64,000 nucleotides of DNA, taken from the IMG/VR virus record IMGVR_UViG_3300046779_000684, positions 44,715 to 108,714 of that record. One strand, given 5' to 3'. The stretch comes from a virus. A program made the translations under genes and the position numbers. Under the pieces are notes generated by a model, which was given only the letters and a program-made list of their open reading frames with translations, ran no database searches and was not told the origin of the DNA. Positions 40,453 to 46,397 of this stretch are shown here, in pieces (the stretch's first letter is position 1; the number at the start of each line of letters is the position of its first letter).

Positions 40453-42438
40453 TTATAATCTAAATGGTGATGAGGTACTACTTCTAAAAGGTGAATAAGG
40501 TTTACGACTCCTAAAGTATTCTTTGAGTCGGTCATCCTCGGAAGTACTATGCACAGTAATCTTGTTAGCAAGAGTTCTAGACATAGCTAATGTCAATCCA
40601 AATGCAATAATACGGTCAACGTTAAGTTTTGGTGTAAATTTTAGTAATTCTTTTAATAGGAGAGGATCTAAAATTCTAGATACACCTAACCTAGTTTTTA
40701 CAATATTACCGTCCGCATCCCGTTCAATATCAATCTCTTCTGTAAGGTATTCAATAATTAAACCTAGCAAGTGAGCTTTAATTTCTTTGGTCATGTGAAT
40801 TCCGTAGTCACGATTAACTGTAGAGTTAGGGTGAATATCTGTCAAGAATGAAGGAGTTCGCTCAAGTACTCTAGGTCCAATGTTCTTTTCTACGCAATGC
40901 TGGATGAAACCGTAGTCCATGTTTTCACATAGGGTTTTAGCGTTGTAGTACATCAGAAGCATCTTGGTAGTTTCATACCATTGCTCAATCTTCTTAGGGC
41001 GGCCTGTGTATGCAGCTACTACTATGTTTTGCCAACCTTCACCCGAAAGATTATGAATTCTTTTGTAGATGTAGGTAGAACCCAAAGAAGTTGAGTAATG
41101 GGCTTGTGATTGTTTATATGGGTCAGTTCCTGCCGTATAAAGCCCATAAGGTGCGTCTGATATTGGGTACTCCCAAATAACTACGCAACCTTCAATATCG
41201 TCTGCTGGTTTAACTGGGAAGTTTACTACTGGCTTCTTGTCGGTGAATTTATGAGCAACCTTACCATCCTGCTTGAAGTAGAGTTCTACATTGTCTCCTT
41301 TAATGTCTTGATTGACTAACTTCTGTAATTGTTCTTGAAGAAGGTCTACTGGGAAGATGTTCTGAGACATCTCCATAAAGCACTCCTCATGAGTTAGAGG
41401 GTAGTACATTATCTCCTTCAGGTAAGCTTCTAGTCCAGATGCCTTCTTAACGTTGTCACGGTTCTTAAGAATCATCTCCTTACCCTTCTCTTCGTCACTT
41501 ACCCAGATAGTAATGTTATCTAGTTCTGAAGACTCTTCCTTGCCTAGGTATAAACCTAAAGGTTTATTTTCTCTAGGTACTTTCAAAGATTTGGTTCCTG
41601 GAATAAACAATCCGTAAGACTTGCCTGTTTCATTAGCCTCTACAGATAGAAAGTTATAAGCTTCAGGGTTATTGAAAAGTTCTTCCAAGTCCCCGGCCTT
41701 AGTCATATCTCCAGAAGTCCCAATTACAATGGGAGAACAACGCCATCCAAACTCTGAGTCAAAACAGGGAATGGTAGCCGACAGACAGTTAAGCATGTTG
41801 CCCTTACCTGCTTCTTCTAACATAAAGGAAGAGAGAGTAAGACCTGCCGCTGCCTCCGTATTGTTACCTTCGTCAAAGTTACGTTTGTTACTAGTTTTGT
41901 CCTTGAAACCTAGGGTTACTTGACGCTTCCAGTCATCCTCAATACGCAAGAATCTAAAGTACTTAGGTAAGTTCTGCAGAACCAAGTCTACCGCTTGAGT
42001 AGTGTTGCTTAAATCCGGTTGGTTTAGGGCTGAGATAAGGTTATCACTACCGTACTGAGTTACGGCCTTGTGAGCCATGTAGGAAGAGGTTATGATAGTT
42101 TTAGAGATACGACGAGATCCTACTATCACCAATCCTTTCATGCCATCAGGATGATTCTCGGCCTTACCAATAGCATCGTCAATCTGCAAATAACTATCCC
42201 AAAGTTGAGGCTTGCCTAGTTTACGTACCTTTCGAGTACCAATCAGTTCATCCTTGTATAACGTACCGTAGTTTAAGTGCCAGTAAATAAACGGAGAAAA
42301 GTAAAACCCATTGATGGTTACTCCCTCTGTAATTTTCTTGTATTCGTTATCCCAAAAAGGAACAAACTCCTCAGAGTTCTCGTCCTCTGGGATGCTCCTC
42401 ATGTTGATTAAGAATTCAGCACTGTCTGGGTTATACAT
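40453..42438 (-). CDS. terL: Terminase large subunit
   Basis: Walker A-like GSRRISKT, Walker B-like FMLEE, motif III GTSG, RNase H-like GTDPY and VDRIIA. Confidence 0.92.
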   Translation of the reverse strand: MYNPDSAEFLINMRSIPEDENSEEFVPFWDNEYKKITEGVTINGFYFSPFIYWHLNYGTLYKDELIGTRKVRKLGKPQLWDSYLQIDDAIGKAENHPDGMKGLVIVGSRRISKTIITSSYMAHKAVTQYGSDNLISALNQPDLSNTTQAVDLVLQNLPKYFRFLRIEDDWKRQVTLGFKDKTSNKRNFDEGNNTEAAAGLTLSSFMLEEAGKGNMLNCLSATIPCFDSEFGWRCSPIVIGTSGDMTKAGDLEELFNNPEAYNFLSVEANETGKSYGLFIPGTKSLKVPRENKPLGLYLGKEESSELDNITIWVSDEEKGKEMILKNRDNVKKASGLEAYLKEIMYYPLTHEECFMEMSQNIFPVDLLQEQLQKLVNQDIKGDNVELYFKQDGKVAHKFTDKKPVVNFPVKPADDIEGCVVIWEYPISDAPYGLYTAGTDPYKQSQAHYSTSLGSTYIYKRIHNLSGEGWQNIVVAAYTGRPKKIEQWYETTKMLLMYYNAKTLCENMDYGFIQHCVEKNIGPRVLERTPSFLTDIHPNSTVNRDYGIHMTKEIKAHLLGLIIEYLTEEIDIERDADGNIVKTRLGVSRILDPLLLKELLKFTPKLNVDRIIAFGLTLAMSRTLANKITVHSTSEDDRLKEYFRSRKPYSPFRSSTSSPFRL

Positions 42439-43483: not shown

Positions 43484-43925
43484 ATAGTTGGTTTAATTTA
43501 AGGTCAATAGATTCTATTCGGGTTATTTTATTCTGATAGAGGGTCTCATTAATAATCCCTTTTTCTAACATAATACTGGCTCTCTTCTTTAACGAAGAAC
43601 TGGCTGCCTTAAATGCAGTAGCCCTTTCGTCTAAATAACTAAAGCTCATGTAGTCTTTAGAATTACCACTAAGGTACTTCTGCAAAGACTGCTCTAAACC
43701 AAAGGCACTCCTACTCAGATTGTTTACAGCAGAAGACAAGTTTATCTGAAGCATGCCAAGTCCTCGTAAGAAGATCTGGCAAGTTGGCTTCTCTACCAAG
43801 TCAGCAAACGTTTTGTTCAGGTACCAAGAGTAGACAGTATCTATCTGCGCAGTAGTATACCCAGATTGTTTTGCAACGTCCGAGTATAATCCATAAGATC
43901 TATATTCTACTTCTTTATGATACAT
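43368..43925 (-). CDS. HU/IHF-like DNA-binding protein, 185 aa
   Basis: N-terminal DVAKQSGYTTAQID...IFLRGLGML resembles the HU/IHF fold. Confidence 0.55.
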   Translation of the reverse strand: MYHKEVEYRSYGLYSDVAKQSGYTTAQIDTVYSWYLNKTFADLVEKPTCQIFLRGLGMLQINLSSAVNNLSRSAFGLEQSLQKYLSGNSKDYMSFSYLDERATAFKAASSSLKKRASIMLEKGIINETLYQNKITRIESIDLKLNQLYESIQRIPEYEQKRTAECGQGPTWGNQQDSSPIPPTES

Positions 43926-44250
43926 CTGTCTTCGTTTTGTCTAAGCTCAGTAATAGGGTTATGCTTGCAGTGTCTTTCTGAGGTAACTTAAGTTTATTGT
44001 TAATTACGTTCTTTTCAAGCAACTTCAACTTTCTAAGTTTGGTGATTACGTTGGAGATAACTTGGATTGAAGTATTATTTTTTGCTGCTAACTCATCCTT
44101 GATTTCTTTGTTGATGGTTCCATAAAAAGAGCTGTAGGCCAGCACACGTACAGATAAATCAGATAGTCTGTAGCCTGCCAATCTAAGCAATATATCTATG
44201 TACGATTGATGCAATTCGACTCCTTCTTCGTATTTTCTAGCGACTTTCAT
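43915..44250 (-). CDS. Putative winged-helix DNA-binding protein, 111 aa
   Basis: ELAAKNNTSIQVISNVITKLRKLKLL HTH-like pattern. Confidence 0.55.
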   Translation of the reverse strand: MKVARKYEEGVELHQSYIDILLRLAGYRLSDLSVRVLAYSSFYGTINKEIKDELAAKNNTSIQVISNVITKLRKLKLLEKNVINNKLKLPQKDTASITLLLSLDKTKTDVS

Positions 44251-44347: not shown

Positions 44348-44377
44348 TGGACAAATTTTCAAATAAAACTATATTTG
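44348..44377 (+). promoter_or_regulatory. Divergent promoter for the plus-strand gene
   Basis: TATATTTG at 44370-44377, TGGAC 18 nt upstream, ATG 15 nt downstream. Confidence 0.65.
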
Positions 44378-44392
44378 TGATAAGAGGTTACT

Positions 44393-44659
44393 ATGAAAAA
44401 AGTATCTATACCTACTAAGGAAGAGTTGATGGAGGTATTCATTGACGAACTCAAAGACTGCGAAATCGGACTAGCTGGTGAGATAGAAGCATTTAGTACT
44501 AGCCTCTACAAATCGTTTCGAAAGTATATCAAGGGAAGGGAGTATAAGGACAAGCTTTTGTATGAGTTTGTTTTTGGCACAGTAGACGACCTCCTATACG
44601 ACGACTCGCCCTCACAGAGAACTGACAGTAACTTACGTCAGCAAGCTGCAGGAGAATAA
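44393..44659 (+). CDS. Hypothetical protein, 88 aa; the only credible plus-strand gene
   Basis: Has its own promoter and sits in a gap between minus-strand genes. Confidence 0.7.
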   Translation: MKKVSIPTKEELMEVFIDELKDCEIGLAGEIEAFSTSLYKSFRKYIKGREYKDKLLYEFVFGTVDDLLYDDSPSQRTDSNLRQQAAGE

Positions 44660-44662
44660 TTC

Positions 44663-44693
44663 TTTGCTCCATTCATTTTTCTTTCTATATTTG
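44663..44693 (+). promoter_or_regulatory. Canonical Bacteroidota promoter TTTG-N19-TATATTTG with no downstream ORF
   Basis: TTTG 44663-44666, TATATTTG 44686-44693. Confidence 0.75.
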
Positions 44694-44697
44694 CAGC

Positions 44698-44930
44698 GAC
44701 ACCGTTTCAAAACGATCACCTGTGAGGGCTTATGGTAGGTAGCAGGTCAGAAGTCGGATAGTATGAGTAATCCTTAGAGGTGAAAAGAGGTTTCTCCGAT
44801 AGTGTCAAAACGTTATTGACGAAATTTGCAGTGCCCTGACCTGGCAGACCCAGGCAATAAGTGGACACAACAGGGACTTGAGGCAACTCATTTGGTAAAA
44901 ACTGCTGCACTATAAGTCGCCAACGGTATA
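44698..44930 (+). ncRNA. Candidate structured non-coding RNA (about 230 nt), family not recognised
   Basis: Own promoter, no plus-strand ORF, at least 7 short helices including a GCAA tetraloop, and a closing ACCGTT/AACGGT stem. Confidence 0.6.
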
Positions 44931-44968
44931 AAAAATCAACTTGATTTTTCGTTTCTGGAAGGAGTAAA

Positions 44969-45412
44969 TTATTTCATCCGACCAACAGCAACAGCCAAAG
45001 ACTTCTCAAGTGCTTTGGAGTAGGCTTTTTTGTTGTGGGGAATCTGGTCGACTGTCAAGAACATTGCATTTACAAACACTCGTTTCTTGGCTTGACCTTC
45101 GTAAACTTTATCTCCTGCCGACAGTTTAACCATAACAATGTAATCACGCCTCAGTAACTGGATGCCAATAATATTAACTAGTTGCTCAGGCATTGCAACT
45201 GAACAGATCTGCACTTTAAGTAGCTGACCTGTATCACAGAGGCTGAACTGGTCCGCCACTAGTTGCTCGGCAGTTGTTTGAGCACCAAACGTTATGGGTC
45301 GGCCAGCAATTTCAGAGATAGAAGCAATAGATGTTACTGAGTCTACTTTGTAGCATTGTCCTTGTAGGCTTAAAGCCAATAAGGATACGAGGGTGAATAG
45401 TATAGTTTTCAT
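44969..45412 (-). CDS. Exported protein, 147 aa, possibly a CsgG-like alpha/beta fold
   Basis: Signal peptide SLQG|Q; C-terminal AYSKALEKSLAVAV helix resembles that of the neighbouring CsgG-family protein. Confidence 0.6.
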   Translation of the reverse strand: MKTILFTLVSLLALSLQGQCYKVDSVTSIASISEIAGRPITFGAQTTAEQLVADQFSLCDTGQLLKVQICSVAMPEQLVNIIGIQLLRRDYIVMVKLSAGDKVYEGQAKKRVFVNAMFLTVDQIPHNKKAYSKALEKSLAVAVGRMK

Positions 45413-45413
45413 T

Positions 45414-46397
45414 TTAGTAAGTTACTTGTCCTGCATAACCAGGTGCTATGAGATAAAGGTTTAAGGTTCCACCTGAAGTAAGAGTAGAGGTAGTGTAAGT
45501 ACTAACCCCTGAGTAAGTCCCTCTTACATTTGTGGTGGCTGCCTTAATAGAATTGTACTGTGCGGTTGTAAAGATACGAACATCCGGTGCTGTGCGCCAG
45601 TTAGAGAATAACCCAGCTCTTCTAGCGGCTACATAGTACTTGTCTGCTACTGATATCCTTCCGTCATCGTTTACGTCAAACATATGGAAGGAAAGACCGT
45701 TACGCACAGTTTTGCCTAGGATGACATTAGATACTCCCTGAACATCAGTTAAGGAGTAAGATTGTACCCGAGTCGGTGCTGGGATTTCTATGTAGTATTC
45801 TTTGGAAGGATCGTAACTTTCAGAGATTGAATAGTAACCGTTCGAGTTAGTATAAATGGTTTTGTAAAGAGTCCAAGATGAAGTTGTTACTAGATATTCA
45901 AACTCTAGAACATAAGCAAGACTAGAAGTTCCATTTAAGTCATTCCACCTACCACCTGATACAAACTGAACGTAATCTTCGTTACCTGAGTTATTGGGTT
46001 CTCCAGAGTTCCAGTTTGTGTAAGAGTAAGTTTCTCCTGTTACCCATCTCCAAGTTCCTTCATTTACTTCGTCTGTAAGTCCTATCCATCCAGAAGGCCA
46101 CAATCCATAAATAAATCCTTGTTCTCCTGAAGAAGTGATGGCTACTAAGTGTCCTCCCATATTAGCACAATTCGACTTAGCTGTTTGCCAGTTTGCTGTT
46201 CCTGTAGAACGGTAGTAGGAGTGACCGTTGTAATTCTGTTGGTTGGTGAATCCAGTAATTGTTGAGTTAGTTCTACGGTAAAGCTTGATTGGGACATTGA
46301 CAGCACCTGAACCATTACCGTTATACATATACCCTGAGTAGGTAAACTGAGCAGACAGATCAACTGCCCAAAGTAAAAGTAAGATAAGCCACCTCAT
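45414..46397 (-). CDS. Exported C-type lectin domain + dockerin-like protein, 327 aa
   Basis: Signal peptide LSA|Q; CTLD motifs GHSYY, C...GGHLV, WIGL, EPN, WND; FDVNDDGRISVAD Ca-binding loop. Confidence 0.85.
   Translation of the reverse strand: MRWLILLLLWAVDLSAQFTYSGYMYNGNGSGAVNVPIKLYRRTNSTITGFTNQQNYNGHSYYRSTGTANWQTAKSNCANMGGHLVAITSSGEQGFIYGLWPSGWIGLTDEVNEGTWRWVTGETYSYTNWNSGEPNNSGNEDYVQFVSGGRWNDLNGTSSLAYVLEFEYLVTTSSWTLYKTIYTNSNGYYSISESYDPSKEYYIEIPAPTRVQSYSLTDVQGVSNVILGKTVRNGLSFHMFDVNDDGRISVADKYYVAARRAGLFSNWRTAPDVRIFTTAQYNSIKAATTNVRGTYSGVSTYTTSTLTSGGTLNLYLIAPGYAGQVTY

What the first reader, a model, noticed from the sequence alone, without database searches (positions are those of the whole stretch)
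44698..44930. Promoter-driven, ORF-less, highly structured ~230-nt RNA candidate
Seen: canonical promoter (44663-44693), then helices ACCTG 44718/CAGGT 44743, GTCGGA 44753/TCCGAT 44795, GTCAA 44804/TTGAC 44816, and a multibranch domain GCAGT 44828/ACTGC 44901 enclosing CCCTG 44834/CAGGG 44871, CCTGG-CAGAC-CCAGG and TGAG-GCAA-CTCA (GNRA loop). The ends pair twice in non-nested order (GCGAC 44696/GTCGC 44916 and ACCGTT 44701/AACGGT 44922), suggesting a pseudoknot or switch. It is GC-richer than its flanks, and I could not match it to tRNA, tmRNA, RNase P, hammerhead or group I cores. Inference: a new phage ncRNA class (ribozyme, protein sponge or anti-defence decoy).
Basis: partly seen in the sequence, partly recalled or inferred. 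Interest (0 to 1): 0.75.

Follow-up and report, generated by a model that had tools for sequence, protein, structure and literature searches.

The report
New structured RNA of Bacteroidota phages
The ORF-less stretch is a real gene for a roughly 230-280-base folded RNA. It belongs to a previously uncatalogued family found in over a hundred phages and other mobile elements of Bacteroidota; its base-pairing is kept by compensatory mutations, but its function is still unknown.

Summary
**Observation:** mostly real. Window 44698-44923 encodes a plus-strand structured RNA.
- Among 19 distinct close homologues, 99.7% of cells in 39 proposed pairs are paired, against 26-45% when partners are slid. 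Fourteen pairs show double changes.
- A covariance model of the 5' domain finds 77 copies in 78 sources, with 95% pairing and a covariation score of 0.52 against 0.15 in shuffles.

**Fold:**
- A four-way junction (P1-P4) has an invariant core, AGAA-GUYGGAU...UUUCUCCGAU-A.
- It is followed by a variable multibranch domain (P5-P8).
- A hairpin and a purine-rich 3' motif come last.

**Promoter:** Bacteroidota-type (TTTG/TAnnTTTG). It sits 3-9 nt before P1 and is perfect in 48 of 73 loci, against 1% in controls.

**Novelty:** no Rfam 15 family, tRNA or tmRNA matches, and no text match to its invariant motifs turned up in the papers library.

- The two end-pairings (pseudoknot) and GTCAA/TTGAC are not conserved.
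- The folding-energy z-score is only -1.
- The promoter is not sigma-70-canonical.

**Distribution:** unrelated phage contigs, integrase-linked islands in Bacteroidota genome bins, and 16 copies in one rumen genome bin.

**Function:** unknown. My best guess is a stable trans-acting RNA that binds a conserved host factor through the invariant core.

**Earlier scan notes:** none describes this RNA on other DNA.

The parts
44370..44377 (+). -7 box TATATTTG (TAnnTTTG) of the promoter of the 88-aa gene
   Evidence: read from the sequence; the motif type is established for Bacteroidota sigma-A promoters (my own knowledge)
44393..44659 (+). 88-aa gene of unknown function that always precedes the RNA in window-type phages
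   Evidence: conserved at 30-68% aa identity in 31 loci; only 16 cluster representatives among 1.8 billion proteins; no Pfam or PHROG family; AF2 model of low confidence, 3-4 helices
44663..44693 (+). promoter of the RNA: -33 TTTG (44663-66), 19-nt spacer, -7 TATATTTG (44686-93)
   Evidence: sequence; a perfect TAnnTTTG ends 3-9 nt before P1 in 48 of 73 distinct loci, against 1% at random positions
44698..44806 (+). domain 1, a four-way junction: P1 44698-702/44802-806; P2 44703-706/44711-714; P3 44718-722/44743-747; J3/4 AGAA 44749-752; P4 44753-758/44795-800; hairpin inside P4 44770-772/44779-781
   Evidence: RNAalifold and manual structure; model R1/R2 alignment of 75 distinct sequences, 95.4% paired; P1 found independently by complement search
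44807..44826 (+). A-rich linker between the two domains
   Evidence: AAAA after P1 is nearly invariant
44827..44909 (+). domain 2: P5 44827-832/44904-909; P6 44834-838/44871-875; P7 44840-844/44850-854; invariant GGCAAUAAGUGGACA 44853-867; P8 hairpin 44879-882/44887-890
   Evidence: covariation in 19 distinct window-type sequences; P8 by eye; this domain varies between subtypes, from one hairpin to about 150 nt
44931..44949 (+). A/U hairpin (AAAAAUCAA / UUGAUUUUU); a 3' hairpin of the RNA and possible two-way terminator facing the convergent 147-aa gene
   Evidence: self inverted repeat; relatives have a different hairpin at the same place; the terminator scan did not call it
44957..44973 (+). 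purine-rich 3' motif GGAAGGAG plus UAU-type element; probable 3' part of the RNA, overlapping the stop codon (44969-71) of the convergent gene
   Evidence: a hairpin followed by ARGGR-N5-9-URUR lies about 160 nt after P1 in 46 of 80 distinct loci, against 8-10% in controls; the exact 3' end is not mapped

Best explanation
Window ~44697 to ~44950-44975 (+) is a separately transcribed gene for a stable, highly structured non-coding RNA of a new family.

**How it is made.** A host-type (Bacteroidota sigma-A) promoter starts transcription right at the 5' strand of P1. The RNA folds into a four-way junction with an invariant core: J3/4 AGAA, P4 GUYGGA/UCCGAU closed by a G-U pair, and UUUC and a single A at the junction. 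A variable second domain follows, then a 3' hairpin with a purine-rich tail.

**Where it sits.** In this phage it forms, with an 88-aa gene, a small plus-strand module. Each of the two has its own promoter. The module is inserted between two minus-strand operons, like a 'moron' (an accessory phage gene cassette).

**What it probably does (inferred, not shown).** It acts in trans. Its invariant core binds, titrates or redirects a factor conserved across Bacteroidota, either a protein or a host RNA. This would serve phage takeover or counter-defence. The variable domain 2 gives stability or scaffolding.
For: **It is a real, structured RNA (shown).**
- Conservation exceeds that of the neighbours: the core is 75-79% identical in nucleotides where the adjacent protein is 54% identical in amino acids.
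- Covariation is strong. P1 takes more than 15 different 5-bp combinations.
- The strand is set by G-U pairs that would be C-A on the other strand: G-U in 75 of 75 sequences at the P4 closing pair, and C/U-G at a second P4 pair.
- The promoter is placed 3-9 nt before P1 in most loci.
- There is no conserved ORF.

**It is an independent gene rather than a leader.**
- The next gene is convergent in the window, in most of the rumen-bin copies examined, and in the genome-bin loci L101 and L104.
- 29 of 80 loci have a second same-strand promoter after the RNA.
- The relative L006 lacks the whole module.

**It is not tied to one phage lineage.** Window-type and L052-type loci share no flanking protein cluster.

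**Weak hints of transcription.**
- A freshwater metatranscriptome contig covers 44717-44875 at depth 19, against 4 for a contig in the neighbouring gene.
- Another RNA run has a contig on the 88-aa gene.

**Basis for the trans-acting, factor-binding inference.** The core is invariant across hosts from several Bacteroidota classes, while everything else changes.
Against: - No partner has been identified.
- The RNA-seq support comes from contigs only, and DNA carry-over is not excluded.
- The folding energy is not exceptional.
- 16 copies in one bacterial genome, and the integrase neighbours, fit a mobile-element role at least as well as a host-takeover role.
- Invariant junction nucleotides are also what a ribozyme or an aptamer would show.
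- The 3' end is not mapped.
Confidence: 0.5

Rival explanations
1. Domain 1 is the core of a new self-cleaving or otherwise catalytic RNA (ribozyme) carried by mobile elements.
For: - The invariant nucleotides are concentrated at a four-way junction while all helices covary.
- The distribution resembles that of small self-cleaving ribozymes: phages, integrase-linked islands, and many copies in one genome.
- A pistol ribozyme lies about 900 nt from the RNA in L056.
- AGAA followed by GUC recalls loop A of the hairpin ribozyme. This is my own recollection, not a test.
Against: - No Rfam ribozyme model matches, even at E<=10.
- No cleavage site can be named.
- At 230-350 nt with a large second domain, it is bigger than known self-cleavers.
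- No read-end data are available.
Confidence: 0.12
2. It is the RNA part of a mobile-element mechanism: either a guide, bridge or template RNA for a recombinase or nuclease, or itself a mobile unit that copies itself around genomes.
For: - There are 16 copies in a 1.8-Mb rumen Bacteroidetes bin, beside unrelated housekeeping genes (ClpB, AcrB, an AIR-synthase-related protein). Similarity mostly ends near the RNA's own ends.
- Copies abut the 3' ends of tyrosine integrase genes in two Flavobacterium contigs, and one copy follows an integrase in Aquirufa.
- None of 120 other genomes of the same order gave a match, so the distribution is patchy (strict filters).
Against: - No recombinase, TnpB/IscB or reverse transcriptase is consistently nearby.
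- This phage has none near the RNA, and no RT anywhere in its genome.
- I saw no terminal inverted repeats or target duplications.
- Some rumen copies share about 100 nt of extra upstream sequence, so the repeat unit is not uniform.
- There is only one copy in the phage.
Confidence: 0.12
3. It is a cis-acting leader (riboswitch, processive antitermination RNA like HK022 put, or translation element) for the genes that follow it.
For: - In most non-window phage loci the RNA lies at a divergent region, followed on the same strand by an array of small early-type genes.
- The invariant junction could be a ligand or RNA-polymerase binding pocket.
- The 3' motif looks like a Shine-Dalgarno sequence plus a start codon: AAGGGG, 6 nt, then AUG in several members.
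Against: - In the window, in most of the rumen copies examined, and in the genome-bin loci L101 and L104, the next gene is convergent.
- 29 of 80 loci have a fresh promoter between the RNA and the next gene.
- The 'start' position is AUA, GUA or UUA in many members.
- Bacteroidota do not generally use Shine-Dalgarno pairing (PMC7797042).
Confidence: 0.07
4. It targets translation: a decoy or adaptor for the Bacteroidota ribosome or for tRNA-handling enzymes. This is a sub-case of the trans-acting reading.
For: - GGAG-like purine motifs are conserved at three places (P3 loop GAGG, P4 inner loop GAGG, 3' AAGGRG) in a phylum that avoids such motifs.
- In some phages the RNA lies in or next to tRNA/tmRNA clusters: L063 within a 19-tRNA array on the same strand, and L072 and L098 near tmRNA.
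- The junction topology is cloverleaf-like.
Against: - Only 6 of about 47 phage loci have a tRNA or tmRNA nearby.
- ARAGORN and Rfam find no tRNA-like signal.
- No complementarity was demonstrated.
- The resemblances to 16S, 5S and SRP motifs that I noted are short and not kept across subtypes.
Confidence: 0.07

Closest known systems
GOLLD and ROOL (orphan ornate RNAs of phages and prophages; Rfam; cryo-EM in bioRxiv 10.1101/2024.12.08.627333)
   Same: Structured, promoter-driven non-coding RNAs of unknown function carried by phages. They are found by covariation, sometimes lie beside tRNA genes, and have conserved cores with variable periphery.
   Different: They are much larger (over 500 nt), belong to other host phyla and have a different architecture. 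cmscan gives no match. tRNA neighbourhood is seen in only a minority of loci here. Multimer formation was not tested.
FopS/GibS multicopy sRNA family of Bacteroides (PMC11697453)
   Same: A Bacteroidota ncRNA family driven by the same TAnnTTTG-type promoters. It is present in many copies in a genome (12-15 there, 16 here in one rumen bin) and also on a phage.
   Different: FopS RNAs have a single-stranded 5' seed followed by a terminator hairpin, and act by base-pairing on susC mRNAs with RbpB. The RNA here is a 230-350-nt multi-junction fold whose 5' end is buried in P1. There is no sequence or Rfam match.
UG27 reverse-transcriptase ncRNA arrays of Bacteroidota/Bacillota phages (bioRxiv 10.64898/2026.09.22.753630)
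   Same: Recently found structured ncRNAs of phages that infect Bacteroidota, with low sequence but high structure conservation and a small accessory ORF nearby.
   Different: Those are tandem arrays of ~150-nt hairpin-plus-pseudoknot units next to an RT and two accessory proteins. Here there is a single copy and a four-way junction, and no RT in the 110-kb genome.
phi29 pRNA and bacterial Y RNAs (structured phage or host RNAs that work as protein-bound scaffolds)
   Same: Similar size class (about 120-250 nt). Function depends on a junction-centred fold. Secondary structure is conserved while sequence is poorly conserved outside a binding core.
   Different: No packaging-motor context of the phi29 type: this phage has a normal large terminase. 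No Ro/Rsr gene was seen among the flanking genes searched. No Rfam match. The resemblance is functional analogy only.

Membership tests
Any Rfam 15 family (4227 models) | score at or above the family's gathering threshold | tested here: not met
   No match at the RNA in the window, nor in 37 other loci of different subtypes. At E<=10 only chance-level hits appear.
tRNA / tmRNA | cloverleaf with D, anticodon and T arms, or a tRNA-like domain plus tag reading frame | tested here: not met
   ARAGORN finds none in the window. Domain 1 is a four-way junction, but P1 has 5 bp, its 3' strand runs on into domain 2, and there is no T-loop or CCA end.
RNase P RNA | CR-I to CR-V blocks and the long-range P4 helix | tested here: not met
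   No cmscan match even at E<=10. AGAAGUCGG resembles CR-I GAAAGUCCGG only over about 9 nt (from memory). Here P4 pairs locally around a hairpin.
Hairpin ribozyme and other known self-cleaving ribozymes | family-specific conserved loops and a cleavage site | tested here: not met
   No Rfam ribozyme model matches at the RNA. Catalysis itself is not testable with these tools.
Diversity-generating retroelement template repeat (considered because a C-type-lectin gene lies 500 nt away) | a template repeat matching a variable repeat in a target gene, plus a reverse transcriptase | tested here: not met
   The region has no repeat anywhere in the window. No RVT_1 match in the 110-kb genome.
UG27 / DRT-type RT-associated ncRNA | an adjacent reverse transcriptase; arrayed units | tested here: not met
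   No RT; one copy per phage genome.
Transposon guide RNAs (omega RNA of TnpB/IscB, IS110 bridge RNA) | an adjacent TnpB, IscB or IS110 recombinase gene, with the RNA overlapping a transposon end | tested here: not met
   The flanking proteins searched gave none of these families. HEARO and IS605-orfB Rfam models do not match.
Riboswitch or cis-regulatory leader | lies upstream of, and on the same strand as, the regulated gene, with an expression platform | tested here: not met
   In the window the next gene (44969-45412) is convergent. The same holds in most rumen copies examined and in genome-bin loci L101 and L104. The question stays inconclusive for the phage groups where same-strand genes follow.
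New family proposed here ('Bacteroidota mobile-element four-way-junction RNA') | TAnnTTTG promoter; P1-P4 junction with AGAA-GUYGGAU...UUUCUCCGAU-A-P1'; A-rich linker; variable domain 2; hairpin plus ARGGR tail | tested here: met
   The window copy scores 117.5 bits with R1 and 98.6 bits with R2. All the listed features are present.

The most novel reading that the evidence does not exclude
The invariant four-way-junction core is an active site. On this reading the family is a new class of natural ribozyme (self-cleaving, ligating or otherwise catalytic) spread by phages and integrative elements of Bacteroidota, and the variable second domain tunes its activity.
Probability: 0.12. Interest if true: 0.92.

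Novelty: categorically new. Interest (0 to 1): 0.78.

Why it matters
Large structured RNAs with invariant cores are rare, and most that have been solved turned out to be ribozymes, riboswitches or the RNA heart of an RNP.

This family has several features that raise its interest:
- It is widespread: at least 82 viral contigs, plus about 20 contigs of Bacteroidota genome bins.
- It is confined to the mobile elements of one major phylum.
- It is made from a strong host-type promoter.
- Its core of about 25 nucleotides does not change, even though host range spans several classes of the phylum.

That pattern points to a conserved molecular target in Bacteroidota. This phylum has unusual transcription and translation signals, and almost nothing is known about RNA-based phage-host conflict there.

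The family comes with a ready covariance model, a minimal natural version of about 165 nt in the rumen bin, and clear mutational targets. The question of what it binds or catalyses is therefore directly testable.

Tried and rejected
- **DGR template repeat.** Prompted by the lectin-fold neighbour. No repeat and no RT.
- **Small protein on the minus strand** (44716-44910). Not conserved.
- **Thermodynamic evidence.** z = -0.97 on the plus strand and -1.36 on the minus strand, so uninformative.
- **GenBank phage records.** blastn found nothing meaningful with three queries. This is no evidence of absence, because the family shares only 11-12-nt exact blocks.
- **The 88-aa protein:**
  - No Pfam or PHROG family.
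  - The profile search found only its own small family.
  - The AF2 model was too poor (pLDDT 56) to use for fold search.
  - The ESM Atlas gave nothing usable.
  - The search for related loci with its alignment gave no new loci.
- **Mimicry of host RNAs.** I noted short resemblances to 16S (GAAGUCGGAAUCG...AGUAAUC...GGUGAA), 5S loop E, 4.5S/SRP and the 16S 3' end (GAUCACCU). All were from memory. None is kept across subtypes, and none is backed by cmscan.
- **Pseudoknot between the 3' AAGGGG motif and a pyrimidine loop** (P2 loop CCUCUU in the L052 type; CCCUUUC after P1 in the L101 type). Complementarity exists in some subtypes, but both sides are nearly invariant, so there is no covariation test. 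Left open.
- **RNA-seq.**
  - Contigs of four runs were laid on the window. They give only weak hints. One cDNA-library contig (44661-44923) starts upstream of the predicted start site and may be DNA-derived.
  - For the rumen-type copy, no RNA holder was listed.
- **Same-order genomes.** 0 of 120 matched, but strict filters were used and only 33 candidates per genome were scored. This is not proof of absence.
- **Literature.** No paper holds the invariant strings. The supplementary files of the IMG/VR csRNA catalogue (PMC10690425) are not held, so I could not check whether fragments of this RNA are among its unnamed 29-151-nt candidates.
- **Not used.** The metagenome-contig scan.

Full report
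**1. What is at the coordinates**

The window comes from a 110,154-bp virus record that is 93% complete. Almost all its genes lie on the minus strand.

Between the minus-strand genes 43915-44250 and 44969-45412 there is a 720-bp plus-strand island:
- an 88-aa ORF at 44393-44659;

Its neighbours are a large terminase at 40453-42438 and a C-type-lectin protein at 45414-46397.

No tRNA or tmRNA and no Rfam 15 family is found in the whole window. At E<=10 the region gives only chance hits.

The minimum free energy is not special: z = -0.97 on the plus strand and -1.36 on the minus strand. On energy alone the finding would fail its own refutation test.

**2. Homologues rescue it**

Searching IMG/VR with the neighbouring 147-aa protein gave eight loci.
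- In seven of them a stretch matching 44749-44917 is 75-79% identical in nucleotides, while the flanking protein is only 54% identical in amino acids.
- The eighth, L006, lacks the whole plus-strand island.

The alignment shows whole helices exchanged:
- ACCUG/CAGGU for GCAGA/UCUGC;
- CCUGG/CCAGG for CCUAC/GUAGG;
- CCCUG/CAGGG for CUCUA/UAGAG.

A pattern built from two invariant blocks found 32 viral contigs of this 'window type'. I tested a manual structure of eight helices on 19 distinct sequences:
- 99.7% of cells are paired, against 26-45% when partners are slid by 1-3 columns.
- 14 of the 39 pairs show changes on both sides.
- No shuffle out of 500 reaches the observed covariation.

The 64-aa minus-strand ORF is not conserved, and the relatives differ by indels of 3, 1, 7, 5 and 1 nt. 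The RNA is non-coding.

**3. The family is much wider**

A pattern from the most conserved part (AGAAGTYGGAT, 25-45 nt, TCTCCGATAG) hit two collections:
- 82 viral contigs;
- 23 contigs of species-representative genomes, of which 3 are coding-sequence false positives.

The true genome hits are nearly all in Bacteroidota genome bins: Flavobacterium, Aquirufa, Chitinophagaceae, Sphingobacteriales, Daejeonella, Spirosoma and a rumen 'Bacteroidetes' bin.

A covariance model of domain 1 (R1) recovered 77 copies in 78 sources. On that alignment of 75 distinct rows:
- 95.4% of cells pair, against 29-48% when slid.
- 345 cells carry double changes, against 94 in shuffles.
- The covariation score is 0.516 against 0.149 (0 of 500 shuffles).

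That alignment is fitted to the model and so leans towards it. I therefore checked P1 independently. A plain complement search finds a 5-bp partner for the 5 nt that begin at the last G of ...GAUAG in nearly every locus, with more than 15 different base-pair combinations.

**4. Architecture (window coordinates)**

| Element | Coordinates | Notes |
|---|---|---|
| P1 | 44698-702 / 44802-806 | closes the four-way junction |
| P2 | 44703-706 / 44711-714 | variable hairpin |
| P3 | 44718-722 / 44743-747 | inner loop often GAGG...AGUA |
| J3/4 | 44749-752 | AGAA, invariant |
| P4 | 44753-758 / 44795-800 | GUYGGA/UCCGAU, invariant, G-U closing pair in 75 of 75 |
| P4 insert | 44770-772 / 44779-781 | variable hairpin, preceded on the 3' side by invariant UUUC |
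| Junction | 44801 | single A before P1' |
| Linker | 44807-826 | A-rich |
| P5 | 44827-832 / 44904-909 | closes domain 2 |
| P6 | 44834-838 / 44871-875 | |
| P7 | 44840-844 / 44850-854 | |
| P8 | 44879-882 / 44887-890 | variable-length hairpin |

The G-U and U-G pairs would be C-A mismatches on the other strand, so the RNA is on the plus strand.

Domain 2 differs greatly between subtypes. It ranges from a single hairpin in the rumen copies (about 165 nt in all) to about 150 nt. Short motifs of the UAAGUG type and GCACUG/ACGUACAG recur in several subtypes.

About 160 nt after P1, 46 of 80 distinct loci have a hairpin followed by ARGGR-N5-9-URUR, against 8-10% in controls. In the window these are the A/U hairpin at 44931-949 and GGAAGGAG at 44957-964. 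The RNA therefore probably runs to about 44950-44975, overlapping the stop codon of the convergent gene. The 3' end is not mapped.

**5. Promoter**

The motif upstream is the Bacteroidota sigma-A type: TTTG at -33 and TAnnTTTG at -7. It is not TTGACA/TATAAT, and the sigma-70 scan did not list it.

A perfect TAnnTTTG ends 3-9 nt (mode 4) before P1 in 48 of 73 distinct loci, and in 61 of 73 with at most one mismatch. At random positions the figures are 1% and 13%. Transcription should therefore start at the foot of P1.

The 88-aa gene has its own copy of the motif at 44370-77.

**6. Context**

- *Window-type phages.* In these loci and the related L071/L081 group the 88-aa gene always precedes the RNA. 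That protein family is tiny and has no known domain.
- *Other phage groups.* The RNA sits at a divergent region and is followed by small same-strand genes, for example a GroES-like protein. A second promoter often lies in between, in 29 of 80 loci. Window-type and L052-type loci share no flanking protein cluster.
- *tRNA neighbourhood.* A minority of phage loci place the RNA in or near tRNA/tmRNA clusters: L063, L072 and L098.
- *Genome bins.* The RNA abuts tyrosine integrase genes in L101, L104 and L105, and an HNH endonuclease in L114, with tRNA genes a few kb away. It therefore lies in integrated elements.
- *Rumen bin G002.* This bin holds 16 copies beside ordinary genes such as ClpB, AcrB and an AIR-synthase-related protein. 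Similarity mostly ends near the RNA's own ends, although some copies share about 100 nt upstream. None of 120 other genomes of that order matched, under strict filters.
- *This phage.* It has one copy and no reverse transcriptase.

**7. Expression**

Only assembled contigs of public runs could be laid on the window.
- A freshwater metatranscriptome has a 160-nt contig on 44717-44875 at depth 19, and a contig in the neighbouring gene at depth 4.
- Another metatranscriptome has a contig on the 88-aa gene.
- A cDNA-type wastewater library has a 264-nt contig spanning 44661-44923.

These are weak hints. Neither the ends nor the strand can be read from contigs.

**8. What it is and how it may work**

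*Shown:* a conserved, independently promoted, non-coding, plus-strand structured RNA gene of a family that is absent from Rfam. The open literature I could search has no text match to its invariant motifs.

*Inferred:* it acts in trans through the invariant junction/P4 core on a target conserved across Bacteroidota. I give this about even odds because:
- the core is unchanged across phages of several host classes while all else varies;
- the gene is often convergent with its neighbours;
- it behaves as an accessory module that related phages can lack.

*Rivals:*
- a new ribozyme (invariant junction, ribozyme-like distribution);
- a mobile-element RNA (16 copies, integrase neighbours);
- a cis leader (same-strand early genes in many phages);
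- a translation-directed decoy (GGAG-like motifs, tRNA neighbourhood in some loci).

None can be settled in silico.

**9. Comparison with known systems**

It works most like the orphan ornate RNAs of phages (GOLLD, ROOL). It shares promoter type and copy-number behaviour with the Bacteroides FopS sRNAs (PMC11697453). It is a member of neither.

It differs from the UG27 RT-associated ncRNA arrays recently reported in Bacteroidota phages (bioRxiv 10.64898/2026.09.22.753630): there is no RT, no array, and the fold is different.

I considered a DGR template repeat because of the lectin-fold neighbour, and rejected it.

Parts of this RNA may be among the 8,495 unnamed short candidates mined from IMG/VR in PMC10690425. 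I could not check that, because the supplements are not held.

**10. Verdict**

Most helices are real, but two of the real helices were missed, and the end-pairings, the energy and the promoter type were misjudged.
- The interpretation 'new ncRNA class' is supported. Its proposed pseudoknot is not, and its function is open.
- Earlier notes of this scan concern only the neighbouring protein cassette.

Noticed in passing
L009:6625-6735 versus L012:5761-5871 (window equivalent about 44759-44794): Two otherwise identical RNAs differ by a coordinated swap of two separated segments inside P4: AGUAU...AAGAGG against UGUGA...AUUGGU. The same two 'alleles' recur across window-type clades. I could not find simple base-pairing between the segments. 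This could be a tertiary contact or a recombined cassette.
   Followed up: partly
G002 (rumen Bacteroidetes bin; loci L106-L121, L124-L137): There are 16 copies of a minimal ~165-nt version of the RNA (domain 1, one hairpin, CAAACGUAAG, and a GC-rich terminator) beside housekeeping genes. Several copies are followed by GC-rich REP-like palindromes (CCCACCCCGUCGCUUCGCGCCACCCCUCC...).
   Followed up: partly
L056:6884-6947 (+): A pistol self-cleaving ribozyme (Rfam RF02679, 52 bits) lies about 900 nt from the RNA in this viral contig.
   Followed up: no
L063:2111-10303; L072:13232-13929; L098:8497-8940: These are phage contigs with a 19-gene tRNA array on the same strand as the RNA (L063), or with phage-encoded tmRNA genes (L072, L098). 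L072 also has a tRNA with a UCA anticodon, called SeC by ARAGORN, which could be a suppressor.
   Followed up: no
window 44393-44659 (+): An 88-90-aa acidic helical protein with the conserved C-terminal motif P-x-Q-x-T-D...Q..AG always lies upstream of the RNA in window-type phages. It has no known family. It could be a partner of the RNA, but this was not tested.
   Followed up: partly
L006:3441-3480: A related phage lacks the whole plus-strand module (88-aa gene plus RNA). The two minus-strand operons abut each other, so the module behaves as an accessory insertion.
   Followed up: partly
L101:1529-3215 and L104:114-1479: In two Flavobacterium genome-bin contigs the 3' end of the RNA faces the 3' end of a tyrosine integrase gene within about 10-130 nt, and tRNA-Asn lies 4-6 kb away. 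L123, from the same bin as L104, has a second copy that loses similarity just before the 3' hairpin/AAGGGG motif. This could be a recombination junction.
   Followed up: no
L123:1183-1249 (-): A Flavo-1 RNA (Rfam RF01705) lies about 5 kb from the RNA in a Flavobacterium contig.
   Followed up: no
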